NCBI GenBank assembly: GCA_000997385.1
Contig: LCBT01000002.1
Span: 119,424-183,423, forward strand
Direction: 5' to 3'
From: Candidatus Daviesbacteria bacterium GW2011_GWA1_41_61
Lineage (GTDB): Bacteria; Patescibacteriota; Microgenomatia; Daviesbacterales; UBA10151
DNA: 64,000 bases
Part shown: piece by piece, positions 3,946-63,780 of the stretch
Layout of the letters: the number at the start of each line of letters is the position of its first letter
How positions within the stretch are numbered: the stretch's first letter is position 1
Translations under genes and position numbers: made by a program
Notes under the pieces: model-generated
Databases searched by the model: none
What the model was told of the DNA's origin: nothing
Seen by the model: only the letters and a program-made list of their open reading frames with translations

Positions 3946-4803
3946 ATGGCTTCAGACAGCATTCCCCGGACTCACTCTTTTTCTTTGGGAGACTTCCATG
4001 ACTTTGACCGCTGTGTTTTTAGGTTTTTTGTCAACCACCATTTAGGGAAAAAATATGAGCTGGCGGAAGGATCAGCCAATCAGGTTATCGGTACTGTACT
4101 GGATCTAGCTATTAAAAAAATCCATCTAACTCATGCTTACGGCCAACCTTTGGATTACCTTTTAAATTATCTGCAAGCTGCAGAAAAAGAGATCAGGGAA
4201 GATGTAAATAAAAGAGGTAATATTTCTTTTTATGGAGCCCAACTCCCATATTTAACTCCTGAGGTGGTAGAACAAGCAAAAACCATCTTTGCTACCTATT
4301 ACCAAGGGATAGAAGGAAACTTTAAAAAAATGGTCACCACCCCTACTACCAAAAGGATAAAACCTTTTTGGGAGGTGATTTTAAGGGGGTCAACCCCTCT
4401 AAAGTTGTGGGGAGCTCCGGATTCTATTGAGATGGGAGAGGATGGGATACCGGAGGTGGTGGATTATAAATATTTTGGAGATAAAGAAAGGGGGGAGGAA
4501 AATTTGGATATGGATCTAATGCCTAAACTTTATACCCTCTTTTGCGCTGCAGAGCTTAAGGCTTTAGATTTTTCCAAAGTCCGTTTTATGGTTAGACTCT
4601 GGCAAGATCCCGGTAATAATTCCTACTATGAAGAGTTTGATCTGCCCCAGATGTCTTCTGTAGCTGATTTTTTTAAAGATAAAACAGAGAGAATTTTAAG
4701 GACCAAGGAGCTCGCCTTTTGCGGTAAGGAATACTGTCGGGTCTGTCACCATCAAGAAAAAGTGGCGTGGATTAAGGAGCTACAGCAATACTTGCACCAA
4801 TAA
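3946..4803 (+). CDS. PD-(D/E)XK nuclease with Cas4/RecB-like Fe-S cysteines
   Basis: One N-terminal Cys (DRCVF), a D...EVVDYK nuclease core and a C-terminal C-x4-C-x2-C (FCGKEYCRVCHH) resemble the Cas4/AddB nuclease-domain arrangement. It is standalone, with no cas genes nearby. Confidence 0.45.
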   Translation: MASDSIPRTHSFSLGDFHDFDRCVFRFFVNHHLGKKYELAEGSANQVIGTVLDLAIKKIHLTHAYGQPLDYLLNYLQAAEKEIREDVNKRGNISFYGAQLPYLTPEVVEQAKTIFATYYQGIEGNFKKMVTTPTTKRIKPFWEVILRGSTPLKLWGAPDSIEMGEDGIPEVVDYKYFGDKERGEENLDMDLMPKLYTLFCAAELKALDFSKVRFMVRLWQDPGNNSYYEEFDLPQMSSVADFFKDKTERILRTKELAFCGKEYCRVCHHQEKVAWIKELQQYLHQ

Positions 4804-23420: not shown

Positions 23421-25652
23421 TTATATACCCACAACTTCAAAGGTGGAGCCTGTGGGGCCTTTATTAACTTCAACTCTCACTGGGAATTCTTCCTTTAACT
23501 CTTCTAAATGAGTGATGATTAAAATTTTTTCAAAATCATCTTTGATGGCATCCATGGCTTCCACAATCCTGGATCTTCCCTGGGCATCTTGGGTGCCAAA
23601 GCCTTCATCAATGACTAAAAACTGTAACTTAGCTCCGGCCCGATGAGTTAACAGTTTAGATAAAGCCAGTCTGATGGCAAAGTTGACCCTAAACTGCTCT
23701 CCTCCACTATAAGCTTCATAAGGCCTTTCTCCCATCTCATCAGAGATAATAATATCCAACGTCTCAATAATCCCCGGCGTTTTAGCCTGCCCTGAACTTT
23801 GTCGAAGGGTTTTTGTTTCCCGCTGAGTTTCAAATCTAACTTTCATCCGCCCTTCTGTCAGTCTGTCTAATAATCTGTTGGCCTCATCTTCAATCTCTGG
23901 GATGGCAGTTTCGATAATCATGGCCTGGATGCCTTTTTTGCCAAAAGCTAAAGCCAACTCTTCATAAGCTGCTTTTTCCTCCTGGAACTTTTTCTTCTCA
24001 GTATGTTTGTCTTTCTGCAAGTTTTCCAATTGCTCGGCTTGGGATACTAACTGCTTTGCTTCTCCTACCTTGCCCCGAAGCTCTAAAACTTTTTGAGCCA
24101 GTTCTTGTTTGATTGAATCTTTCCCTTGAAGTTTGCTTTTAACCTCTTCCAGCTGTTGTTGATAAAAAGTGAGCTGCTCTAAACCTTGGCTCTCTTTATC
24201 AATCTGCTCCTGTTTATTTTGAGAGATTTTAAGAAGATCACTAATCGTTTCTTGATGGGCTTTGACCGCAGTTTCTGCTTGCTGAAGTTTGGTATATAAA
24301 TCAACATATTTTTCTAAGTTAGTAATTTTGATATTTAAAAAGCTCCACTCTTTAGTCTCTTCTTCCAGTTTTTGGATAGAGATCTCTTTATCATCAGCTT
24401 CTTTTTGTTGAGGAATGAGATAGTTTTTAACCTGGGCAATCTGTTTTTCTAGAGTTTCCAATTGAGCATTGTTTTTTTTTAACTTAGCCTCATTTTTGAC
24501 GATAATTTCTTTATTTTTATCCTCACCGATATTCTGTCCGCAGGTAGGGCAGAGATCTTTGTGGGATTTTAAGTGATCGAGCTGTTTTTGATATTGTTCA
24601 TTTTCGGTTTGTAGCCTTTTAATATCCACTTCTAAAGAAGTAATCTTACGGCCCCGTCTGTCTTCTAGTTCCAGGAGCTGTTTTTGCAGGGCAGCCAGCT
24701 CGTCCTTAACTGTAATAAGCTCCGACCTTTTTCCTTCCAAAGCTTTCTTCTCCTCCTGGAGTTTTTGTAACTGCTGGTAGGCAGTTTCAATTTGCTGCCT
24801 TTGAGATAAGATTACCTGATATTCTGTTTGAGCTTTTTCTTTTAAGGAGATCTGCAGCTTTAAATCTGCCAACTCTTTTTGGGCTGCCTCAATTCTGGTC
24901 TTGGTTTCTTCTAAGGACTGAAGCTTGGTAGCTGCTGCCTCCCGTTCTTTATCAATAAGTTTTATTTGTGCTTCTACCTCTTTAAGTTGAGATTCTACTT
25001 TTTTAGCTTCCTCTTCCGCCTCGGTGAGAGCTTGTTCCCGAGCCTCTTTTTGAGAAAGTTCTGCTTCAATTTCTAGCAGTTGATATTCTAAAAGTTGTAA
25101 TTTAGTTTGGACCTCTTTGGCTTTTTCCTTAGCTTTTTCTTCCAACTTATCATAGTGGGATAGTCCCAAAATATCTGCCAAAATCCTTTTTCGATCGGAA
25201 GGGCCTTTGGTGGTAAATTCATCAGCATGCCCTTGTCTTAAAAAAGCAGAGTTGATAAAGGTCTCATAAGTTAAATGGAGAGTATCAATAATTTTTTGTT
25301 GGGTAGTTTTGATAGTGCCTTCAGTTAAGTTATAAGAGTTAGAAAACATTTCTAAAGAAGTTTGTCCGCCTCCTTTTAAGACTCTACCTCGTTTGACAGT
25401 ATAGATATGCTCGTCTAGCTGAAAGGAAAACTCTACCGTCATACAAGTTTGTCCTAGCCTGACCAGTTGATCTGCTGAATCTCCCAGTCTGGATGAGCCC
25501 CACAAACACCAGGTAATAGAGTCTAAAAGTGATGATTTACCGGCCCCGTTTTGACCCGATATGGCTGCCATATGAAACTGGGTAAAGTCCAGCTCAGGGA
25601 CATCAGCTCCATAAGAGGTAAAATTTGCTAGTTTTAATTTAACAGGAATCAT
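23421..25652 (-). CDS. sbcC: SbcC/Rad50-like ATPase with coiled coil and CxxC zinc hook
   Basis: N-terminal Walker A (GQNGAGKSS), long coiled coils, a CPTCGQ hook and a C-terminal signature/Walker B (FLVIDEGFG) are all present. Confidence 0.8.
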   Translation of the reverse strand: MIPVKLKLANFTSYGADVPELDFTQFHMAAISGQNGAGKSSLLDSITWCLWGSSRLGDSADQLVRLGQTCMTVEFSFQLDEHIYTVKRGRVLKGGGQTSLEMFSNSYNLTEGTIKTTQQKIIDTLHLTYETFINSAFLRQGHADEFTTKGPSDRKRILADILGLSHYDKLEEKAKEKAKEVQTKLQLLEYQLLEIEAELSQKEAREQALTEAEEEAKKVESQLKEVEAQIKLIDKEREAAATKLQSLEETKTRIEAAQKELADLKLQISLKEKAQTEYQVILSQRQQIETAYQQLQKLQEEKKALEGKRSELITVKDELAALQKQLLELEDRRGRKITSLEVDIKRLQTENEQYQKQLDHLKSHKDLCPTCGQNIGEDKNKEIIVKNEAKLKKNNAQLETLEKQIAQVKNYLIPQQKEADDKEISIQKLEEETKEWSFLNIKITNLEKYVDLYTKLQQAETAVKAHQETISDLLKISQNKQEQIDKESQGLEQLTFYQQQLEEVKSKLQGKDSIKQELAQKVLELRGKVGEAKQLVSQAEQLENLQKDKHTEKKKFQEEKAAYEELALAFGKKGIQAMIIETAIPEIEDEANRLLDRLTEGRMKVRFETQRETKTLRQSSGQAKTPGIIETLDIIISDEMGERPYEAYSGGEQFRVNFAIRLALSKLLTHRAGAKLQFLVIDEGFGTQDAQGRSRIVEAMDAIKDDFEKILIITHLEELKEEFPVRVEVNKGPTGSTFEVVGI

Positions 25653-25662
25653 ATACTTTATA

Positions 25663-26826
25663 TCAACCTTCTAAAATAGATGCAGCATACTTTTCTAACT
25701 GTTTGATTTTTTCTGGACTGTATTTTTTGGATTCAAAATATTTTTGTAGAGCTTCAATGGGAGTTAGTCTTTCTACCTCTTCCTGACCCTCTAAAATAGT
25801 CCTCTCTTTTCTTTCTACATTTCTGGAGATGCCAGCAATAAAGTAGGCTGAATCTAAAGCTTTTTTAATTTTATCCATAGAGATCTCTTTACTGACTGAA
25901 GCTGGGATATCGATTATCAGACGAACCACCTTATTTTCTACGTCATGTTTTTTGATTTCTTTAAGAATAATTTCGGTAGGTTCTACCTCCTCCTCTTGTA
26001 ATGAAACCCTTATGGTTAAGAATTTCCGAGCATCAGAGGGGACAAAATCATAAGTGGTTTGGGCTGGTGTGGAGATATTAACTATTACAAATCCCTTCTC
26101 TTCCTTTTCTTCTCCAAAATCAATTCTTTGCGGTGAACCAGAATAAATAACTGGCGGATCTTTGGCCAAAACCTGATACTTATGAATGTGGCCTAAGGCA
26201 ACATAAGAAAGTTTTCTGTTTGTTAAAAGAGACAGGGGAATGGCGACATCATTGATAATAGCCAACCCCTTTTCGCTGCCAAAAGAAGCCCCTTCTACCT
26301 CCAGGTGTCCTACCAAAATAGCTGGCCCTGAGCTTGTCGAAGGGTTGATTTTTTCATACATGGCCGGCAGTTTATCTCCTAAAGTTTTAAACTCCCCTTT
26401 ATGCAGCCAGGGAGCAGTCAAAACTTGTAGATTTCCGGATTTAGTAGGGATGTTAAAAAACTGGGGTTGTCTGGAAACCCAAACATTCTCCATCTCTAAA
26501 GCAGAATAAATATCTAAAGTGTTGGCTTTGCCCTCCGCATTAGGGGTATCATGGTTGCCCACTACTAAAACAACCGGAATTCCGGCTTTGGTGATTTTTC
26601 TGATTCTTTCCCCAAAACCCCGTTGTTGGGTAGGAGAGGGATCACGGGTTTTATAAGCATCACCGGCAAAGATAAAAGCATCTAACTTTTTTTGGATAGC
26701 ATAGTCCACCATTAAATCCAAAGTTTTGAAAAAATCCAGAAGTCTACTTTCCAGCCCGGTTTCCGGGTCCAACTTAGAATAATTGGTCATGCCAATATGT
26801 AAATCTGCAGTATGAAGTAGTTTCAT
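25663..26826 (-). CDS. sbcD: SbcD/Mre11 nuclease
   Basis: Calcineurin-like phosphoesterase motifs: LHTADLHIG, GDAYK and GNHD. Confidence 0.85.
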   Translation of the reverse strand: MKLLHTADLHIGMTNYSKLDPETGLESRLLDFFKTLDLMVDYAIQKKLDAFIFAGDAYKTRDPSPTQQRGFGERIRKITKAGIPVVLVVGNHDTPNAEGKANTLDIYSALEMENVWVSRQPQFFNIPTKSGNLQVLTAPWLHKGEFKTLGDKLPAMYEKINPSTSSGPAILVGHLEVEGASFGSEKGLAIINDVAIPLSLLTNRKLSYVALGHIHKYQVLAKDPPVIYSGSPQRIDFGEEKEEKGFVIVNISTPAQTTYDFVPSDARKFLTIRVSLQEEEVEPTEIILKEIKKHDVENKVVRLIIDIPASVSKEISMDKIKKALDSAYFIAGISRNVERKERTILEGQEEVERLTPIEALQKYFESKKYSPEKIKQLEKYAASILEG

Positions 26827-35159: not shown

Positions 35160-37031
35160 CTACACATTGAGCCATTCATCTTGATCCTGATCAATTGTAA
35201 CATCATCCAAAAACTGGCCTCGGTCCTGATAATTTGTGGCAGAATTAATCAGTTCTTCTGGCAGATCAATGACAAAACGGGAGACTAAGTTATTAGAACG
35301 GGTGCCAAAATAAAGCCTTTGTCTGGTATAGGTTAAAAAAAGTCTCTCTTTGGCCCGGGTAATACCAACATAACAAAGCCTTCTTTCTTCTTCCAGCTCA
35401 TTGGGATTCAGTAAAGACCTCGAATGGGGGAACAAACCCTCTTCCATGCCAACTATAAAGACCATTGGCCACTCTAAACCTTTAGCCTGATGGAGGGTAG
35501 TTAAGGTAACAGTTTCTTTTTTGTTTTGTCCCCTTTTGAGCTTTTCATCTGAGGAATATTCACTTTCTACCAGGGCGACATTTTCTAAAAACTCTATTAA
35601 GTTGGGGTACTGCTGCGCCACCGAGCGAAGCTCTTTGACGTTTTCAATCCTTGATTTACCGGAATCAGCACCGTCATCCAGATAATCTAAATAATCAGTC
35701 TTTTGTAAAATTAAATCTAACAGCTCTAAAGTGGTATAGTTGGTTAAGGTCTCGCTGAAAAGTTCCCGGAACCTATTTGCTCGGGTTTTGCCGATTTTTT
35801 CAATCCTATTTTTAGAGATTGAATCCTCACTGTTGGCCAGAAGCCGCAGGTACGCGAGTATATCTTTAATCTCCTTTCTCTCATAGAACCTAATGCCCCC
35901 TACTAAAATATAAGGCACTCCGGCTTTGAGAAAAATTTCCTCTAAGGACCGGGATTGGGCGTTGGTGCGGTATAACACCGCACAACTGGAAAGAGGGAAG
36001 TTAAACTTTTTAATCTTACTGACAATAAAAAGGGCTTCTTCCTCTTCGTTCCTGGTTTCTACCACCTCAATTTTTTCTCCGGGAGGGTTGTTAGTCCAAA
36101 GCTTGAGGATTGGGTGGGAGTTGTTTTTAGAGATGACTGCAAAGGCAGCGTCCAAGATGATTTGGGTAGAGCGGTAGTTTTGCTCTAAGTTAAAAACTCT
36201 GGCTCCCGGGTAGTCCCTTTGGAAATTAACAATATTTCTAAAATCAGCTCCCCGAAACATGTAAATGGATTGGGAAGCATCCCCTACCACACAGATGTTT
36301 TTGTAGCGGTGGGCCAAAAGTTTGGAGAGTAAATATTGGACAGTGTTAGTATCCTGATACTCGTCAATTAAGATGTAGCGAAACTGAAGCTGGTATTGGG
36401 ATAAAACTTCCGGGTAAGTCTGAAACAGCTTGACGGTTAAAAGCAGTAGATCATCAAAATCTACCGCTTTGTTTTTTTCCAGTATTTTTTGGTACTCCAG
36501 ATAAATTTTAGCTACCGTTTCCTGATAGTAACCCCTGGCATATTGAGGATATTCCAGGGAGGAGATCATCTCGTTTTTGGCCTGGGAGATAGTATTTTTG
36601 ATTCCGGAAGGAGAGCTTTTTTGAGGGGAGAGGTCTAAATGTTTCATTGCCTCTTTGATGGCATCTAAGGCATCATGTTCGTCATAGATAGAAAAGGAGG
36701 GGGGGAGTCCTATAAGGTGTCCATCTTTTCGTAAAATCCGGGCACAGAAAAAGTGAAAGGTGCCCATGGTTGGGAGGTTAGAGGTTTTGGGTTGATAGCT
36801 TAAAAGCTTGATAATTCTGCCTTTCATCTCATCAGAGGCTTTGTTGGTAAAAGTTAAAACACAGATATTTTCTGGGGGGACAGCTTTTTCTTTAATAAGA
36901 TAGGCTACCCGGTGGGTTAAAGCTTTAGTTTTTCCACTCCCTGCTCCGGCCATGATTAGAGTCGGTCCTTCAGTAGCTTTAACAGCCTCTTTTTGCACTG
37001 GATTTAGGTCATCAAGAAGATTACTGAGCAT
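35160..37031 (-). CDS. pcrA: ATP-dependent DNA helicase UvrD/PcrA (SF1)
   Basis: Walker A (AGAGSGKT), helicase motifs (VDEYQDT, QNYRST, GLEWP) and a length of about 620 aa. Confidence 0.85.
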   Translation of the reverse strand: MLSNLLDDLNPVQKEAVKATEGPTLIMAGAGSGKTKALTHRVAYLIKEKAVPPENICVLTFTNKASDEMKGRIIKLLSYQPKTSNLPTMGTFHFFCARILRKDGHLIGLPPSFSIYDEHDALDAIKEAMKHLDLSPQKSSPSGIKNTISQAKNEMISSLEYPQYARGYYQETVAKIYLEYQKILEKNKAVDFDDLLLLTVKLFQTYPEVLSQYQLQFRYILIDEYQDTNTVQYLLSKLLAHRYKNICVVGDASQSIYMFRGADFRNIVNFQRDYPGARVFNLEQNYRSTQIILDAAFAVISKNNSHPILKLWTNNPPGEKIEVVETRNEEEEALFIVSKIKKFNFPLSSCAVLYRTNAQSRSLEEIFLKAGVPYILVGGIRFYERKEIKDILAYLRLLANSEDSISKNRIEKIGKTRANRFRELFSETLTNYTTLELLDLILQKTDYLDYLDDGADSGKSRIENVKELRSVAQQYPNLIEFLENVALVESEYSSDEKLKRGQNKKETVTLTTLHQAKGLEWPMVFIVGMEEGLFPHSRSLLNPNELEEERRLCYVGITRAKERLFLTYTRQRLYFGTRSNNLVSRFVIDLPEELINSATNYQDRGQFLDDVTIDQDQDEWLNV

Positions 37032-58792: not shown

Positions 58793-59028
58793 AAGCAGGT
58801 CTTGCTAAGATATTTGGCACTGCCGAGGGCAAAGTAAAACCATCCGGGGAAACACCTGCCCCGAGTGCATCTACCGATGGAAGCAAAGAAGGTCTCCTTC
58901 AACAAGCCAGTCAGGCGTATGAAGCTGCTATCCGTGCACAACGGGAAGGAGATTGGGGGAGATACGGAGAGGAAATAAAACGCTTAGGAGAAATCCTAAA
59001 TAAGCTAAGCTTGCGTTCTTCGAACTAA
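58726..59028 (+). pseudogene. Frameshifted C-terminal continuation of the UPF0182 gene (-1 frame)
   Basis: Frame B reads KIPELKRVIVAYENKIAMEETLEAGLAKIFG..., a sensible continuation of ...PLYLEKSP. The shift maps to a C4 run at 58731-58734. Confidence 0.55.
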
Positions 59029-59128
59029 AGCTGCGCTAATACTTTAATTAGTCAATTTGTTTTCAATCATCTTTTCAACTTTTCTTTTTGCTTCCTCTAA
59101 AAGCTCTTTTGATTTTTTCCTCGATATA

Positions 59129-59710
59129 TTATTTTGCATTTTCTAACCAAGTTGCAAAATTGTTATATCCATTTCCGCTTATCCAATCATAACACTGAAC
59201 CCAACTTGACAGCTTGAAACCCTTGCCCCAATACTGTCTATCAAAACTGGCTGTCTTGGACGGCAAATCCTGATAAATCTTCCAATCTGTTCCGTCGTGT
59301 TCGTAATAGGTAATTCTCCTTCCGTCTTCGCTTGTCACAAATCCTAGAAAATCAAACGGATTTTGCCCCTGAAAAAAAGTCTGTCTATTTTTGTCAGGTA
59401 CGCTGTTTATATGAACGCCAAACAATGTATTTCCTCGATCATAACTTTTTAATATTTCGTACCTAACCCAACGCCTGTTCCAAGTATTTGTGCCAATAAG
59501 AACACAAGTAACGGTTGTGTCATCAAGGTTTGAATTTATAAGTCGTTTTACTGAATCGGCACCGTATCTTTTTGCATCTTCCCAAATTGAGGCATCAAAA
59601 AATCCTGCTTCTTGACCATTCGCTTTTGTAAAACCATGATTTCTTACAACATTGGCACGAAATGTTTTTACATCGTCATAATGAAAACTGAAGAATACCT
59701 GCTTTGCCAT
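59129..59710 (-). CDS. TIR-like domain protein (ThsB-like, DUF1863-type)
   Basis: From the internal Met it reads MAKQVFFSFHYDDVKTFRANVVRNHG ... FDASIWEDAK ... VTCVLIGTNTWNRRWVRYEI ... GVHIN ... NPFDFLG. This closely resembles Thoeris ThsB-type TIR proteins, as recalled from memory. The ATG lies 2 nt after the stop of the upstream TM-protein gene. Confidence 0.6.
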   Translation of the reverse strand: MAKQVFFSFHYDDVKTFRANVVRNHGFTKANGQEAGFFDASIWEDAKRYGADSVKRLINSNLDDTTVTCVLIGTNTWNRRWVRYEILKSYDRGNTLFGVHINSVPDKNRQTFFQGQNPFDFLGFVTSEDGRRITYYEHDGTDWKIYQDLPSKTASFDRQYWGKGFKLSSWVQCYDWISGNGYNNFATWLENAK

Positions 59711-59712
59711 AT

Positions 59713-60114
59713 TTAGTTTATTAAATACACAATAAAAAGCATGATAAAAATTAGGGATAGATAAAACCACAAAAGAGTCAGTGAAGACATTGAGCTTAAC
59801 CAACTGTTGCGCTTGTTCTTTTTATACTTCCGCGTGTCCATGGAAAAATCTATTTCTTTTTCATCAAGTTTTCTGACATCATCATATAAATCACGGAATA
59901 ATCGCTCTTGAGAAAGAAAATAACCGTCCAAAACCCAGAACATAATAACCGGAAAATAAGCAATGAAAATGTACTTCGGATTTGCATCCTTTGCAGATAA
60001 AGCAAAAAGTGCGGCAATCAATGTAATCGCCCATCCTTTCAGAAAAAACGAATTGCCTGCCATTTTATTGATGACTCCTTGAATGAACTCAAGATGTTTT
60101 CGCTTATTTTCCAT
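59713..60114 (-). CDS. Small 3-TM membrane protein coupled to the TIR gene (candidate effector, SLATT-like?)
   Basis: From MENKRKHLEF there are three hydrophobic helices (GWAITLIAALFALSA; IFIAYFPVIMFWVLDGYFL; LTLLWFYLSLIFIMLFIVYLI) and a charged loop. There are 2-nt gaps to both neighbours. No SIR2/SLOG/Macro domain is present. Confidence 0.45.
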   Translation of the reverse strand: MENKRKHLEFIQGVINKMAGNSFFLKGWAITLIAALFALSAKDANPKYIFIAYFPVIMFWVLDGYFLSQERLFRDLYDDVRKLDEKEIDFSMDTRKYKKNKRNSWLSSMSSLTLLWFYLSLIFIMLFIVYLIN

Positions 60115-60116
60115 AC

Positions 60117-60914
60117 TCAAATAATTACTGTTGCTTTTTCGTACAATATTGGTAAACAATCCTGCCTCATTCGAAATTTTGTGCCATGATTGTGCCCCGT
60201 GCGTGCGTCAAAATCCACAAGGATTTTGCCTTCTTCTAATGCTTTCAAAAATCCTTCAAAGCTGAATTTTTGCAACATCATTACTTTTGTGTAGTGATAA
60301 TATTCCTTTTTCCCTTCAATTTTTACTTCAGCCTGAACATAAAAAGTATTAAGTAATTTTGTTCCAGCTTTATGATCCAGATCATCAAAGCCCCAATATG
60401 GTTGTGGATTAAGTTCATCTAGTCCAACACGCTTTTTGACAGATTCAAGCCATTCTTTATGCCTTTTATCAACGCTTTCTGCATCGAAAGAAATTAAAAT
60501 TTTCCGCTCCTTACGGTCAATTACTACCATGAAACCACGATCGCTTCTTGCCAGCCCATGGATAGTAAGGCGAAAACTCATCTCGCCTTTTTGATATTTT
60601 TTACCGTCTTCTTGATGCGTCCAGCCGTATCCAGGCAAAAGGACTTGGGGGACGAAACGAACTGCTCTAGGTGAAGGCTCGGTATGAAAAAGGGTTGTAA
60701 GAGATGAAGAATTGAGTCGTTGCGCTTTTAATTCCCACTCCGCAGCATTTGGAATTGGTAAATTATTTTCTTTAATATCAAGTAAATCTTCGAGTGTGTT
60801 CCCTATCCCACCAGAGTTATCTCGCCGGGCGTTCGTAACCCAACCCATAGCGGCAATTTCTTTAAGTTTATCAATTAATGTTTGCTTTGAATAAATAATA
60901 GGTTTATCTGTCAT
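60117..60914 (-). CDS. Type II restriction endonuclease, MvaI/BcnI family
   Basis: GNTLEDLLDIKENNLPIPNAAEWELKAQRLNSSSLTTLFHTEP parallels the BcnI/MvaI N-terminal catalytic region (ENN ... GE.ELK ... NLTLFH..P). It is about 265 aa and immediately downstream of an N4-cytosine methyltransferase. Confidence 0.7.
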   Translation of the reverse strand: MTDKPIIYSKQTLIDKLKEIAAMGWVTNARRDNSGGIGNTLEDLLDIKENNLPIPNAAEWELKAQRLNSSSLTTLFHTEPSPRAVRFVPQVLLPGYGWTHQEDGKKYQKGEMSFRLTIHGLARSDRGFMVVIDRKERKILISFDAESVDKRHKEWLESVKKRVGLDELNPQPYWGFDDLDHKAGTKLLNTFYVQAEVKIEGKKEYYHYTKVMMLQKFSFEGFLKALEEGKILVDFDARTGHNHGTKFRMRQDCLPILYEKATVII

Positions 60915-60920
60915 TGTTAT

Positions 60921-61730
60921 TTACAAAAGACTAATTTGAGATTGGTCTATTCTAATCCTTTCTTCAGCCATATCGCAATATTCTGGCGAGATATCTATCC
61001 CAATATAATTTCGTTTGAAGTTTAGAGCGGATATTGCAGTTGTGCCAGATCCCATAAAAGGATCAAGGATAACTTTTGCATTTGTTGACGAGATAATTCG
61101 ATCAATTAATTTGACAGGGAAAGCGGCAGGGTGTTCGTTTTTCATCTCTTGTGTAAATTCCCAAACATCACCGTAAGCATTGGCTTTTGGTGCAAGTTTA
61201 AACCTCGGCTTTGCAATAAGATAAATTACCTCATAGGTGGGAAGAAAGTACCCTGCATTAAAATTAAGACCTCCTTTCCTCTTCCAAATAATAATTTGCC
61301 TGACAGGAAATCCAGCAACGATATCTTGACGATCTTGTAACAAGCCATCTTGAACACGCCATTTATGATTGTAGAAAATCGCGCCATCTTCTGGAATTAT
61401 TCTCATCATTTCATTCAAACACTCTTTTTGCCATTTAACATATCCATCATGGGGCATACAATCGTCGTGATGTGTGTATCCATTTTGGAGTGCAGCATTT
61501 GCCCACTTTCCGCCACGCCCATCTTTCATGCCGTTACCAGTTGAATTTTTGAGATTATACGGTGGTGAGGTAACAACTAAATCAACCTTTCCATCAGAGA
61601 TTTGCTTCATTATCTCGACAGCATCACCACATAGAATTCGATTTATAAAATCTTCCGGATATAAAAGCTTTTTAACACTCTTTTTGTTAGACTGATAGTC
61701 TAATCCAGTTTTGTTTATACCTTGTGGCAT
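60921..61730 (-). CDS. DNA N4-cytosine (or N6-adenine) methyltransferase, beta class, SPPY motif
   Basis: Motif IV DLVVTSPPYN precedes motif I DPFMGSGTT. The likely start is MPQGINK at 61730, 7 nt after the LexA-1 stop. The listed ORF extends to 61763. Confidence 0.8.
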   Translation of the reverse strand: MPQGINKTGLDYQSNKKSVKKLLYPEDFINRILCGDAVEIMKQISDGKVDLVVTSPPYNLKNSTGNGMKDGRGGKWANAALQNGYTHHDDCMPHDGYVKWQKECLNEMMRIIPEDGAIFYNHKWRVQDGLLQDRQDIVAGFPVRQIIIWKRKGGLNFNAGYFLPTYEVIYLIAKPRFKLAPKANAYGDVWEFTQEMKNEHPAAFPVKLIDRIISSTNAKVILDPFMGSGTTAISALNFKRNYIGIDISPEYCDMAEERIRIDQSQISLL

Positions 61731-61737
61731 TATAATA

Positions 61738-62355
61738 TTATCCATTGATTTTACTCTTCCCAAGTATACCTACAACCTTACCTAATAATCTAGTCTCAGG
61801 GTATATGGGAATATTTCTATATTTTGGGTTCTCCGGTTTCAGATAAACCTTACCATCAGCATGAATAAATCTTTTAACAGTAGTCTCGCCATCCCAACGG
61901 GCTAAAACTATGTCACCGTTTTTAAAGTCTTTTGCATACCTTACTAAAACAGCATCATCATCCTGTATTCCAGCACCAATCATAGAGTCTCCTTTTACTT
62001 TTACTACAAATAAATCTACTGTTGTTTCAATATCGCCTGCTGCTTTCCATTCAATATCTTCAAACGCTTGCATATATGCACCAGCTGCGCTGATTCCTAC
62101 ATATGGCATTATTGGTTGCGTGTCAAGAGCCTCAAATCCTTTTTGCAGAATCTTTAGTCCTCGTGCCATACCTTCTTCCTTCTTAATAAATCCCTTATTT
62201 TCTAATAAGCGCAAAAGGTCTAAAACTGATTGATTTGAAGAAACATTTAGTTCTTCGCGAAGATCTGCGAGTGTTGGGGGAAAACCTGAATCTTTGAGAG
62301 ATCGATAGATAGCTCTGAGCGTCTGTTTTTGCCGGGGGGTTAATTTACTTTTCAT
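61738..62355 (-). CDS. lexA: LexA-type S24 repressor, paralog 1
   Basis: LexA winged-helix N-terminus (LTPRQKQTLRAIYRSL ... FPPTLADLREELNVSSNQSV), an Ala-Gly cleavage site (SAAGAY), Ser (GDSM) and Lys (VKRF) of the S24 peptidase. The true ATG is 62353-62355. The listed ORF starts at a TTG inside the promoter. Confidence 0.8.
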   Translation of the reverse strand: MKSKLTPRQKQTLRAIYRSLKDSGFPPTLADLREELNVSSNQSVLDLLRLLENKGFIKKEEGMARGLKILQKGFEALDTQPIMPYVGISAAGAYMQAFEDIEWKAAGDIETTVDLFVVKVKGDSMIGAGIQDDDAVLVRYAKDFKNGDIVLARWDGETTVKRFIHADGKVYLKPENPKYRNIPIYPETRLLGKVVGILGKSKING

Positions 62356-62362
62356 AGAGTAA

Positions 62363-62391
62363 AATATACTGACTATATAGTCAGTTGTCAA
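62363..62391 (-). promoter_or_regulatory. Promoter TTGACA-N17-TATATT with the 18-bp palindrome ACTGACTATATAGTCAGT filling the spacer (putative LexA operator)
   Basis: -35 is rc of 62386-62391, the palindrome is at 62368-62385, and -10 is rc of 62363-62368. The ATG is 7 nt downstream, so the transcript is leaderless or nearly so. Confidence 0.6.
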
Positions 62392-62498
62392 GATAGCAAA
62401 TTATACAGCTTTCTTTGAGCCCGTAAACTGCCTCTTCATTTTTGAATATCTTTCCAATCACATCTTCGGCTTTATTTGGTTTTATAGTTGGCATAAGT

Positions 62499-63137
62499 TT
62501 AAGAAATCATCCTCCATTGACCATTTTTCAAAACAGAAATAACTTTACCCTCTAAAACCACGTCTTCTGTAAAGTAAATAATTTCATACTTTGGATTTTC
62601 CGGTTTTAAATAAAGATATGGCGGTTTATCTTCCGAAATAAAACGTTTTACCATAGACTCATCTCCGACTTTTGCCAGTACAACATCTCCCGAAACGAAT
62701 TCTTTTTGACTTTTTACCAATACTTTGTCCCCATCATCTATTCCCGCATTGATCATCGAGTCGCCTGAGATTTGAAGAAGAAAAACATTATCTTGAAGCA
62801 TTGCAACCTGAGAAGAAAGAATTTGCCATTCACCGGAAATTTCAATGGCTTGAAGAGGAACGCCTGCGGATGTAGCACCCAGGAAGGGAGCAATTGGTGG
62901 TTTGCCGAGTACCTCGTAGCCAAGAGGCAATATCGTTATGCTTCGCGCTTGGGATTCGTTGCGCTTAATGAGCTTTTTCTTTTCCAGTTTCGCTAATAGA
63001 TCAATCACTGACTGATTGGAGGAGACGTTTAGTTGCTCTCGCAATTCTTCAAAAGTCGGAGGATAACCCGTACTTATAATATACCTGTAAAGGTTTTCCA
63101 GTAATTCCTTCTGCCTTTCCGTGATGGAAGAAACCAT
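62499..63137 (-). CDS. lexA: LexA-type S24 repressor, paralog 2
   Basis: ITERQKELLENLYRYI ... YPPTFEELREQLNVSSNQSV, an Ala-Gly site (TSAGVP), GDSM Ser and VKRF Lys. Confidence 0.8.
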   Translation of the reverse strand: MVSSITERQKELLENLYRYIISTGYPPTFEELREQLNVSSNQSVIDLLAKLEKKKLIKRNESQARSITILPLGYEVLGKPPIAPFLGATSAGVPLQAIEISGEWQILSSQVAMLQDNVFLLQISGDSMINAGIDDGDKVLVKSQKEFVSGDVVLAKVGDESMVKRFISEDKPPYLYLKPENPKYEIIYFTEDVVLEGKVISVLKNGQWRMIS

Positions 63138-63146
63138 AGCAATTCA

Positions 63147-63175
63147 AATATACCCGACTATTTAGTCGGGGTCAA
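63147..63175 (-). promoter_or_regulatory. Promoter TTGACC-N17-TATATT with the 18-bp palindrome CCCGACTA(AA/TT)TAGTCGGG in the spacer (putative second LexA operator)
   Basis: The palindrome is at 63153-63170. It shares the core GACTA-NN-TAGTC and the same promoter architecture as the site upstream of paralog 1. Confidence 0.6.
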
Positions 63176-63190
63176 GAGGCAATTGTAACC

Positions 63191-63780
63191 GGCATACTAG
63201 AGTGGTGGAGCATATTTTTTTGTCAAATCCCAAACTCCGCAACCTCAAGTTCAAAATCAGGTTGTAGTTTCTCAAACTCCTAAATCTACTACTATTCCAG
63301 ATGGAACTGCTAACCCCAATCCCGACCAATTCGGGACCGATTTAATCGGGGCTAACTGAAAAATATATGAAAACCCGTCTTACAAATTTAGCCTTAAGTA
63401 TCCTTCGGATTGGCGGCAAGAGACTCAGGTTTCTACTTATGGTGATCAAACTTTAGCAGTGTTAACTTTAGATCCTTCCTGTTCGGATGTAGGTTGTAGT
63501 GGTAGGCCAAGGGGTGTGTATATTTACCTTTAAAGACTATGTTAACCAGATAGTTATACCGCAAAACTCCTCTGCGAAAATCATAAATCAGCAGAAGTAC
63601 TTTAGAAATCTTGATGCGGTAGTTGCCGAGGGGTTTTCAGGAGCGGGGTCTCCAGGGTTAGTAGCATTTATAGCTAAAGAAACAAATATTATTGAGCTAT
63701 TTTCAGACGGTATTGATGAAGCTATTGCAAATAAATTTTTTCCACCTTTAAATTTATCCAGTAAAAATAAACTTGTGTGA
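63191..63780 (+). pseudogene. Multi-frameshift remnant of an MQKGF-family / KYP..W-domain paralog
   Basis: Three frames carry consecutive pieces: a Q/P/T-rich linker (63191-63358, no start codon), KIYENPSYKFSLKYPSDWRQE... (matches FSLKYPTSW of member 4), then the ORF 63499-63780. Confidence 0.45.

What the first reader, a model, noticed from the sequence alone, without database searches (positions are those of the whole stretch)
61738..63180. Tandem LexA paralogs, each autoregulated from a promoter whose 17-nt spacer is a distinct GACTA-NN-TAGTC palindrome
Both LexA genes are preceded by the same architecture. A -35 box (TTGACA or TTGACC), a 17-nt spacer almost entirely occupied by an 18-bp perfect palindrome, and a -10 box TATATT sit 7-9 nt before the ATG. 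The palindromes ACTGACTATATAGTCAGT and CCCGACTAAATAGTCGGG share a 5+2+5 core, GACTA-NN-TAGTC. This core differs from both the E. coli (CTGT-N8-ACAG) and Gram-positive (GAAC-N4-GTTC) SOS boxes, so it would be a new LexA-box type. The differing outer triplets could give each paralog its own specificity. No further copies of the core were seen elsewhere in the 64 kb, so the regulon may be local to the island.
Basis: seen in the sequence. Interest (0 to 1): 0.7.

Follow-up and report, generated by a model that had tools for sequence, protein, structure and literature searches.

The report
Two LexA repressors heading restriction-modification cassettes
The two palindromes are real self-repression sites of two LexA genes, but the motif is the standard one found at lexA throughout the Patescibacteria, and the tandem pair arose when a second lexA arrived with a restriction-modification cassette.

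Summary
Two minus-strand genes (62499..63137 and 61738..62355) are full LexA proteins. Each sits behind the best sigma-70-like promoter of the region, with a GACTA-NN-TAGTC palindrome filling the spacer (2 exact copies; 0.01 expected).

The motif is not private to this island. The same promoter-operator unit precedes lexA in 77 of 79 readable Patescibacteria loci. A 2017 paper that I could not read validated LexA sites in this superphylum, so "new box type" is probably already published.

The upstream gene, LexA-B, is the superphylum-wide orthologue. LexA-A belongs to a smaller Microgenomates clade whose operators are always CTGAC..GTCAG. That flavour tracks a Lys/Arg in the DNA-binding wing (17 of 17, against 2 of 61).

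No further sites were found in the window or in 1.25 Mb around 80 lexA genes. Exact metagenome matches were promoter-like only at lexA.

An unexpected result: about 67 of 75 Patescibacteria lexA genes are followed directly by a DNA methyltransferase gene, usually hsdM-cargo-hsdS. In this window a lexA-A/methylase/MvaI-BcnI endonuclease/defence cassette replaced that operon. Codons 1-28 of hsdM and the last 21 of hsdS remain. Whether recA or repair genes carry this box could not be tested.

The parts
62499..63137 (-). lexA-B, 212 aa. It is the orthologue of the LexA found across the Patescibacteria.
   Evidence: Pfam finds LexA_DNA_bind and Peptidase_S24. TIGR00498 scores 144.3 bits. It is 56-72% identical to the LexA of L019-L084.
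63147..63175 (-). lexA-B promoter: -35 TTGACC (63175..63170), 17-nt spacer, -10 TATATT (63152..63147). The ATG lies 9 nt downstream, so the mRNA is leaderless or nearly so.
   Evidence: The spacing between the -10 box and the start codon is 6-9 nt in 59 of 70 related loci.
63153..63170 (-). Operator B, CCCGACTAAATAGTCGGG (7+4+7 palindrome). This is the consensus form of the superphylum-wide lexA operator.
   Evidence: It scores 30.1 bits on the B matrix and 16.5 on the A matrix.
62411..62494 (-). Remnant of the first 28 codons of the about 650-aa hsdM-like gene that normally follows lexA. It lies inside a 37-codon ORF (62381..62494).
   Evidence: tblastn of the L022 protein: 64% identity over residues 1-28, E 8e-7. 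The ORF is called as a gene in L001.
62363..62391 (-). lexA-A promoter: -35 TTGACA (62391..62386), 17-nt spacer, -10 TATATT (62368..62363). The ATG lies 7 nt downstream, so the mRNA is leaderless.
   Evidence: 11 of 12 consensus matches.
62368..62385 (-). Operator A, ACTGACTATATAGTCAGT (perfect 18-bp palindrome). This is the form specific to the LexA-A clade.
   Evidence: It scores 30.5 bits on the A matrix and 20.0 on the B matrix.
61738..62355 (-). lexA-A, 205 aa. It belongs to a second LexA lineage found in Daviesbacteria, Woesebacteria and Curtissbacteria.
   Evidence: (152.7 bits). It aligns over its full length with solved LexA structures.
60921..61745 (-). N4/N6 DNA methyltransferase. 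Its start overlaps the last 8 nt of lexA-A, so the two are co-transcribed.
   Evidence: Pfam N6_N4_Mtase, 2e-40. PADLOC MTase_II, 4e-119. Gene calls in L001.
60117..60914 (-). MvaI/BcnI-family type II restriction endonuclease.
   Evidence: Pfam MvaI_BcnI, 4e-66. PADLOC REase_II.
59713..60114 (-). 133-aa predicted membrane protein, matching the candidate defence gene PDC-M50A.
   Evidence: PADLOC, 5e-52. Gene call in L001.
59129..59710 (-). ThsB-type TIR protein, matching PDC-M50B.
   Evidence: Pfam ThsB_TIR. PADLOC PDC-M50B at 5.5e-56 and ThsB at 7e-53.
59062..59124 (-). Remnant of the last 21 codons of the hsdS specificity gene. It marks the far edge of the replaced segment.
   Evidence: tblastn of the L067 HsdS: residues 429-449, 71% identity, E 0.006.

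Best explanation
The two palindromes are the autoregulatory operators of two LexA-family repressors. A LexA dimer bound to the 16-18 bp palindrome fills the space between the -35 and -10 boxes and keeps RNA polymerase off. Each promoter is therefore held low by its own product. Relief would come when DNA damage (RecA on single-stranded DNA) triggers LexA self-cleavage at the Ala-Gly bond.

lexA-B and its operator are the ancestral unit, present in nearly every Patescibacteria genome. There it normally heads an operon of an hsdM-like methylase, variable defence cargo and hsdS. lexA-A comes from a second LexA lineage. It arrived as a portable unit (promoter/operator, lexA-A, N4/N6 methylase, MvaI/BcnI endonuclease) together with a two-gene TIR defence pair. 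This unit replaced the interior of the old operon.

Both LexAs share the recognition helix SSNQSV and hence the core GAC-N6-GTC. A Lys/Arg in the wing of LexA-A goes with T/A at the outer operator position, which suggests partly separate specificities.

Shown here: domain content, catalytic and cleavage residues, promoter and operator positions, conservation, gene order, remnants and covariation. Inferred: DNA binding, repression, RecA-dependent induction, co-transcription and specificity.
For: Both proteins are LexA. Ser124 and Lys161 are invariant, and Ala91-Gly92 aligns with the canonical cleavage site. The two promoters are the best in the region. The core occurs twice against 0.01 expected. 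The same -35/palindrome/-10 unit precedes lexA in 77 of 79 readable loci from Daviesbacteria through Parcubacteria and Peregrinibacteria to Saganbacteria. G13, T14 and C15 are invariant in 65 of 65 B-clade sites, and conservation is at the level of bases. Of 46 exact metagenome matches to CCGACTAAATAGTCGGG, 26 lie within 50 nt of a lexA start, and no other gene family has a promoter-like copy. All 12 A-clade operators read CTGAC..GTCAG. The wing residue is K/R in 17 of 17 LexAs with that operator and in 2 of 61 others. Gene order: 52 of 75 loci have an about 650-aa HSDR_N_2 + N6_Mtase gene directly after lexA, 12 an N6_N4 methylase cluster, and 3 an Eco57I-type cluster. HsdS lies further downstream in 43 of 54 loci. 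Remnants of hsdM and hsdS flank the cassette. Window 60092..62402 is 76-81% identical to L008-L010, where it sits in other genomic contexts.
Against: No binding, cleavage or expression data exist for these proteins. recA is absent from all sequence I could reach. The window's repair genes, uvrD and sbcCD, have no site. It is therefore not shown that this box governs a DNA-damage regulon rather than only the lexA operons. The covariation is confounded by phylogeny: 13 of the 17 cases are one clade, leaving about 3 independent events. Hybrid operators (CCCGAC..GTCAGT in L027, L047, L050, L082) and B-clade proteins with A-like operators (L063, L071, L080) show that the outer positions are not a strict discriminator. 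Operator A still scores 20 bits on the B matrix, so LexA-B may cross-bind it. The hsdS remnant is short (21 aa, E 0.006). Only representatives of each methylase cluster were checked against Pfam and PADLOC.
Confidence: 0.8

Rival explanations
1. The LexA proteins of this lineage are not global SOS regulators. They act as DNA-damage-sensing controllers of restriction-modification and defence cassettes, and the operator occurs only at lexA itself.
For: About 67 of 75 lexA genes are followed at -29..+25 nt by a methyltransferase gene of varying type. L204 has yet another R-M pair behind a LexA-B 75% identical to the window's. No further sites occur in 1.25 Mb around lexA genes: 14 weak hits against 8-13 in shuffles. 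None occurs in the window. Exact metagenome matches are promoter-like only at lexA.
Against: Only +-10 kb around lexA and exact consensus copies were examined, so weaker sites at recA, uvr or polymerase genes elsewhere would be missed. The 2017 paper's title speaks of a DNA damage-inducible network, which implies further targets. This reading extends the best explanation and does not exclude it.
Confidence: 0.35
2. The palindromes are transcription terminators or RNA hairpins, not protein-binding sites.
For: The terminator scan lists both palindromes as a 7-bp stem, 4-nt loop and T-rich tail. Identical CCGAC..GTCGG palindromes followed by T runs occur as terminator-like hairpins in unrelated metagenome contigs.
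Against: They sit exactly between the -35 and -10 boxes, 7-9 nt before the -10-to-ATG stretch. They are present upstream of lexA whatever lies upstream. Across 77 loci the bases themselves are conserved, with no compensatory stem changes, and in many loci the left arm is degenerate so that no hairpin can form. The T-rich 'tail' is the -10 box itself.
Confidence: 0.03
3. The palindromes are bound by another factor, such as an R-M controller protein, or they are recognition sites of the linked methylase. LexA would not be the binding protein.
For: The position at the promoter of an R-M operon resembles C-boxes.
Against: No other DNA-binding gene is conserved in the module. The downstream R-M type varies (type I-like, N4/N6, Eco57I-type, none) while the motif stays constant. 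The motif variant tracks a LexA wing residue.
Confidence: 0.04

Closest known systems
Patescibacteria LexA-binding motif and SOS network (Sanchez-Osuna, Barbe, Erill 2017, Environ Microbiol 19:3465, PMID 28618189)
   Same: It covers the same superphylum and the same protein family. According to Table S2 of PMC8565304, it validated LexA sites for a Collierbacteria (Microgenomates) protein and a Parcubacteria protein. Any motif search on lexA promoters of this group would recover the element seen here, since it is present in 77 of 79 loci.
   Different: I could not read the paper. I do not know whether it reports this exact motif, the A/B flavours, the tandem arrangement or the methylase linkage. 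PMC7739468 cites it in connection with direct-repeat LexA motifs, whereas the sites here read as palindromes with an often degenerate left arm.
Classical LexA autoregulation (E. coli CTGT-N8-ACAG; Gram-positive CGAAC-N4-GTTCG)
   Same: The repressor has a winged-helix domain plus an S24 domain with an Ala-Gly site and a Ser/Lys dyad. A 14-16 bp palindrome sits in its own promoter. The A form retains CTG-N10-CAG. The B form retains CGA...TCG ends, and many B-clade left arms read GAAC.
   Different: The inner half-site is GACTA rather than CTGTA or GAACA. A single operator fills the spacer. The mRNAs are leaderless. The downstream genes are methylases, not repair genes.
Duplicated LexA with diverged motifs (Xanthomonas LexA1/LexA2, Leptospira interrogans LexA1/2, Bacteroidetes SOS-regulator paralogues; model in PMC8565304)
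   Same: Two LexAs in one genome each sit behind a distinct variant of the motif. This fits the published model of duplication followed by motif divergence.
   Different: Here the two genes are adjacent. The second copy looks acquired with a mobile R-M cassette rather than duplicated in place. The divergence is confined to outer operator positions and a wing residue.
Restriction-modification controller (C) proteins such as C.PvuII, C.AhdI and C.Esp1396I (from general knowledge)
   Same: An autoregulated DNA-binding protein is encoded first in an R-M operon and binds a palindrome at the operon promoter.
   Different: C proteins are small Xre-type helix-turn-helix proteins without a protease domain. 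They act as concentration-dependent activator/repressors on paired C-boxes. LexA would add a DNA-damage input.

Membership tests
LexA repressor (TIGR00498) | N-terminal LexA-type winged helix DNA-binding domain | tested here: met
   PF01726 at 3e-15 and 1.5e-13. The whole-protein equivalog model scores 152.7 and 144.3 bits against a cutoff of 110.95.
LexA repressor (TIGR00498) | C-terminal S24 peptidase domain with a Ser/Lys dyad | tested here: met
   PF00717 at 2e-26 and 2e-23. GDSM Ser124 and VKRF Lys161 are invariant in 24 aligned sequences that include both proteins. LexA-A aligns with solved LexA structures.
LexA repressor (TIGR00498) | Ala-Gly scissile bond in the linker | tested here: met
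   A91-G92 is invariant (SAAG in LexA-A, TSAG in LexA-B) and aligns with the AAG of PDB LexA.
LexA repressor (TIGR00498) | Palindromic operator in its own promoter (autoregulation) | tested here: met
   Sequence evidence only. The palindrome fills the spacer of the best promoter-like site upstream of each gene and is conserved in 77 of 79 loci.
LexA repressor (TIGR00498) | Binding to the operator and RecA-stimulated self-cleavage | not testable with these tools
   This needs purified proteins.
LexA repressor (TIGR00498) | Control of DNA repair or mutagenesis genes (an SOS regulon) | tested here: inconclusive
   There are no sites at uvrD or sbcCD in the window and none in 1.25 Mb of lexA flanks. 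recA is not present in any sequence held.
Published Patescibacteria LexA box (PMID 28618189) | Identity with the motif validated in that paper | not testable with these tools
   The paper is not held. Only its existence and the two validated proteins are documented.
E. coli-type SOS box CTGT-N8-ACAG | CTGT and ACAG arms 8 nt apart | tested here: not met
   Operator A is CTGA-N8-TCAG and operator B is CCGA-N8-TCGG.
Gram-positive SOS box GAAC-N4-GTTC | GAAC and GTTC arms 4 nt apart | tested here: not met
   The arms are GACT and AGTC in both window operators. Some related loci have GAAC as the left arm only.
R-M controller (C) proteins | Small Xre-type HTH protein without other domains | tested here: not met
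   The proteins are 205 and 212 aa, with a LexA winged helix and an S24 domain. PADLOC gives no hit.
R-M controller (C) proteins | First gene of an R-M operon, with a palindromic site at the operon promoter | tested here: met
   The lexA-A stop overlaps the methylase start, and the endonuclease follows 6 nt later. The same layout occurs in L008-L010.

The most novel reading that the evidence does not exclude
In the Patescibacteria, lexA with its operator serves as a portable, DNA-damage-responsive regulatory head for restriction-modification and defence cassettes. Nearly every lexA drives a methylase operon, and the cargo behind it is exchanged between lineages. This window would then have caught one exchange in progress: an incoming lexA-A/R-M/TIR cassette, with its own operator flavour, overwrote the resident hsdM-hsdS operon. 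The SOS signal would raise methylase and restriction expression after damage or foreign-DNA attack, and there may be little or no classical repair regulon.
Probability: 0.3. Interest if true: 0.7.

Novelty: new member of a known kind. Interest (0 to 1): 0.45.

Why it matters
As originally posed (a new SOS box), the finding matters little. The motif is the lineage's ordinary lexA operator and has very probably been described.

Three other points may matter. First, the window places an ancestral LexA and a second-lineage LexA side by side, with operators that differ only at outer positions. Those positions covary with one wing residue (K68). This gives a simple, testable case for how LexA specificity drifts after a second copy appears.

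Second, lexA heads a DNA-methylase or R-M operon in about nine of ten Patescibacteria loci examined. If real and unreported, this would tie the DNA-damage signal to restriction-modification in a huge uncultured group with tiny genomes.

Third, the remnants document cassette replacement at a defence locus.

Tried and rejected
1. I looked for other regulated genes. A matrix scan of the window, of 80 lexA loci and of the metagenome and source-organism loci found nothing beyond lexA promoters. The few weaker hits were coding sequence or stacked hairpins.

3. I scanned viral contigs for CGACTAAATAGTCG. There were 86 hits, none with the promoter layout, which is chance level.

4. I scanned viral contigs for relatives of the protein. 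Only S24 domains of phage-type repressors matched, at 35-42% identity over residues 83-196. No close LexA-A or LexA-B relative was found, so there is no evidence that the cassette is phage-borne.

5. Literature. The 2017 Patescibacteria paper is not held. Eight searches found no open-access text that states the motif or describes a lexA-methylase operon in this group. The supplements of PMC8565304 name only the validated proteins.

6. The terminator reading of the palindromes was considered and rejected (see rival explanations).

7. I first took the about 650-aa gene plus HsdS for a BcgI-like type IIB system. PADLOC calls them type I methylase and specificity subunits, and no HsdR was seen, so its class remains open.
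Full report
**What is in the sequence.** The window is chromosomal DNA of Candidatus Daviesbacteria bacterium GW2011_GWA1_41_61 (Microgenomates, Patescibacteria). The 205-aa protein is 100% identical to the LexA of that record. The rest of the window carries housekeeping genes such as dnaK, dnaJ, lepA, groEL and metG.

Two adjacent minus-strand genes, 62499..63137 (called lexA-B here) and 61738..62355 (lexA-A), each have a LexA winged-helix domain and an S24 peptidase domain. Both pass the curated LexA equivalog model. They are 47% identical to each other. The Ala-Gly bond, the catalytic Ser (GDSM) and the Lys (VKRF) are invariant in an alignment with 22 relatives. They line up with solved LexA structures.

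Read on the minus strand, each gene is preceded by TTGACA or TTGACC, a 17-nt spacer filled by a palindrome, and TATATT, then 7 or 9 nt before the ATG. The consensus scan ranks these as the two best promoter-like sites in 58800..63400. GACTANNTAGTC occurs exactly twice in 64 kb, against 0.01 expected.

**The motif is lineage-wide.** A scan of one genome per species returned 80 lexA loci, 78 of them from Patescibacteria. Printing the 110 nt upstream of each showed the same unit almost everywhere: a TTGAC-like -35 box, the palindrome, then TAnnnT. A matching site was found in 77 of the 79 loci that have upstream sequence. The two exceptions are outgroups with GAAC/GTTC-like boxes.

In the 65 sites of the large clade, G13, T14 and C15 are invariant. 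The right arm TAGTCGGG is nearly so, while the left arm is often degenerate (CCAGAAYA). Conservation of bases rather than of pairing, together with arms that cannot pair, argues for a protein-binding site and not a hairpin. The -10 box ends 6-9 nt before the start codon in 59 of 70 loci, so these lexA mRNAs are probably leaderless.

**Two LexA lineages.** LexA-B is 56-72% identical to the LexA of loci from Parcubacteria, Microgenomates, Peregrinibacteria and Saganbacteria. LexA-A is 55-69% identical to a smaller set, L007-L018 (Daviesbacteria, Woesebacteria, Curtissbacteria), and only 42-52% identical to the rest. No other locus has two lexA genes in tandem. Two genomes have two lexA genes on separate contigs.

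Both lineages keep the recognition helix SSNQ(S/A)V, which fits the shared GAC-N6-GTC core. All 12 A-clade operators read CTGAC..GTCAG. The residue aligned with LexA-A Lys68, in the wing, is K or R in all 17 proteins whose own operator has that form. These are 13 A-clade proteins plus L029, L063, L071 and L080. It is K or R in only 2 of 61 others.

Hybrid operators also exist. Operator A still scores 20 bits on the B matrix, whereas operator B scores 16.5 on the A matrix, below every A training site. One-way cross-binding is therefore plausible.

**Regulon.** In the window the next best matrix score after the two operators is 9.3 bits. There is nothing upstream of uvrD (35160..37031) or sbcCD (23421..26826). 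In 1.25 Mb of lexA flanks there are 14 weak extra hits, against 8-13 in shuffles.

Of 46 exact metagenome matches to CCGACTAAATAGTCGGG, 26 lie within 50 nt of a lexA start. One more looks like a promoter at a contig end. The rest are terminator-like hairpins or lie in coding sequence. recA is in none of the sequence I could obtain. Whether this box also controls repair genes therefore remains open.

**Context: lexA heads methylase operons.** Clustering the gene immediately downstream of lexA gave three main groups. In 52 of 75 loci it is an about 650-aa protein with an HSDR_N_2 nuclease-like domain and an N6 methylase domain; PADLOC calls it a type I methylase (557 bits). In 12 loci it belongs to an N4/N6 methylase cluster, and in 3 to an Eco57I-type methylase cluster. 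The gaps are mostly -29 to +25 nt. Only representatives of each cluster were checked.

HsdS lies further downstream in 43 of 54 loci. Variable cargo sits between hsdM and hsdS: NYN, DUF3800, a DUF4145 protein matching PD-T7-4, and unknown genes. No HsdR was seen. Upstream neighbours are not conserved. A metagenome relative with a LexA-B 75% identical to the window's carries yet another pair behind lexA: a 257-aa protein plus a type II methylase.

**How the tandem arose.** The 37-codon ORF between the two lexA genes matches the first 28 residues of the 650-aa methylase (64% identity, E 8e-7). Just past the TIR gene, 59124..59062 matches the last 21 residues of HsdS (E 0.006).

Between these remnants lie five genes. 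They are lexA-A, an N4/N6 methylase whose start overlaps the lexA-A stop, an MvaI/BcnI endonuclease, and the two-gene candidate defence system PDC-M50 (a membrane protein plus a ThsB-type TIR protein).

The segment 60092..62402 (promoter/operator, lexA-A, methylase, endonuclease) is 76-81% identical at the DNA level to L008-L010, where it sits in other genomic contexts. The simplest reading is that a lexA-led R-M cassette replaced the interior of the resident lexA-B-hsdM-hsdS operon.

No convincing terminator separates lexA-B from lexA-A. Transcription from the lexA-B promoter may therefore read into the cassette, where LexA-A bound at its operator could act as a roadblock. This is inference.

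**Mechanism proposed.** Each LexA dimer binds its palindrome in the promoter spacer and excludes RNA polymerase. RecA activated by DNA damage promotes cleavage at Ala-Gly. That would derepress lexA and the co-transcribed methylase, endonuclease and defence genes. Everything from binding onward is inferred from family knowledge.

Two rationales for linking damage sensing to methylation and restriction are possible. One is protection of newly synthesised, unmethylated repair DNA from self-restriction. The other is a boost of defence when foreign DNA is being degraded. I could not test either.

**Known or new.** PMID 28618189 analysed the LexA network of exactly this superphylum. According to Table S2 of PMC8565304, it validated sites for a Collierbacteria protein and a Parcubacteria protein. 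PMC8565304 also counts it among the papers reporting distinct LexA motifs. I could not read it. Since the element is at nearly every lexA promoter of the group, I presume the motif is published.

I found no open-access description of the tandem arrangement, the clade-specific operator flavour with its wing-residue correlate, the cassette replacement, or the near-universal lexA-methylase linkage. I cannot exclude that the 2017 paper covers some of these.

**Verdict.** The operators are real and the autoregulation reading is sound. The claim of a new, island-private box is not supported. As a motif the finding is ordinary, and it is moderately interesting for what surrounds it.

Noticed in passing
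L012, L017-L083 (related loci), 10-60 nt upstream of the lexA -35 box; absent from the window: The perfect DnaA-box consensus TTATCCACA is concentrated at lexA promoters. Of 57 exact copies in 1.19 Mb, 33 lie within 150 nt upstream of lexA, 30 of them in the same orientation. Of 80 loci, 42 have a copy there with at most one mismatch. This suggests DnaA co-regulates the lexA-methylase operon in many Patescibacteria. DnaA plus LexA control of E. coli uvrB is a precedent (PMC6015884, listed).
   Followed up: partly
window 62355..62368 and 63137..63152; related loci L007-L084: The -10 hexamer ends 6-9 nt before the lexA start codon in 59 of 70 loci (mode 6), and 7 and 9 nt in the window. No room is left for a Shine-Dalgarno sequence, so lexA appears to be translated from leaderless mRNA throughout the group.
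   Followed up: partly
related loci L007-L084, downstream of lexA: About 67 of 75 Patescibacteria lexA genes are followed directly by a DNA methyltransferase gene. Usually this is an about 650-aa HSDR_N_2 + N6_Mtase protein, then variable cargo (NYN, DUF3800, DUF4145 matching PD-T7-4), then HsdS. No HsdR is in sight.
   Followed up: partly
window 59129..60114 (-): A 133-aa predicted membrane protein and a ThsB-type TIR protein match the two components of the PADLOC candidate defence system PDC-M50, at 5e-52 and 5.5e-56. They lie at the tail of the lexA-A cassette. No ThsA-like partner was seen.
   Followed up: partly
window 62400..62427 (-): A third good promoter-like site, TTTACG-16-TATAAT (10 of 12 matches), lies inside the hsdM remnant, just upstream of the lexA-A -35 box. 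It has no palindrome and could give LexA-independent transcription into lexA-A, or it could be a chance match.
   Followed up: no
window 23421..26826 (-), 35160..37031 (-), 3946..4803 (+): The repair and nuclease genes sbcC, sbcD, uvrD/pcrA and a PD-(D/E)XK nuclease are present. None has a LexA-box-like site upstream; the best score is 9.3 bits, inside sbcD.
   Followed up: yes
L018 (Patescibacteria AH-259-L05), downstream of lexA: An IS605-type TnpB (OrfB_IS605 plus a Cas12f-like TNB domain, 419 aa) is inserted between lexA and a fragmented hsdM-like gene with pieces of 534, 245 and 96 aa. This is another example of turnover at this locus.
   Followed up: no
L019 12323 (+), Daviesbacteria NC_groundwater_149: A second, distant S24/LexA-like gene (233 aa, 25-28% identical to the window proteins) lies 2.3 kb downstream of the LexA-B orthologue, after an N4/N6 methylase.
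   Followed up: no
L175 11084, L064 2333 and metagenome loci L176, L182, L192, L198, L203, L211: Palindromes of the CCGAC-N6-GTCGG type also occur as stacked or T-tailed hairpins in intergenic regions unrelated to lexA. Sequence matches to the box outside promoters are therefore not evidence of LexA binding.
   Followed up: partly
L008-L010, L012, L013, L015, L017 and others (record titles): Many 'binchicken' MAG records titled 'uncultured Gammaproteobacteria' or 'uncultured Candidatus Saccharibacteria' carry lexA loci 60-80% identical to Daviesbacteria and other Microgenomates. Their taxonomic labels look unreliable.
   Followed up: no
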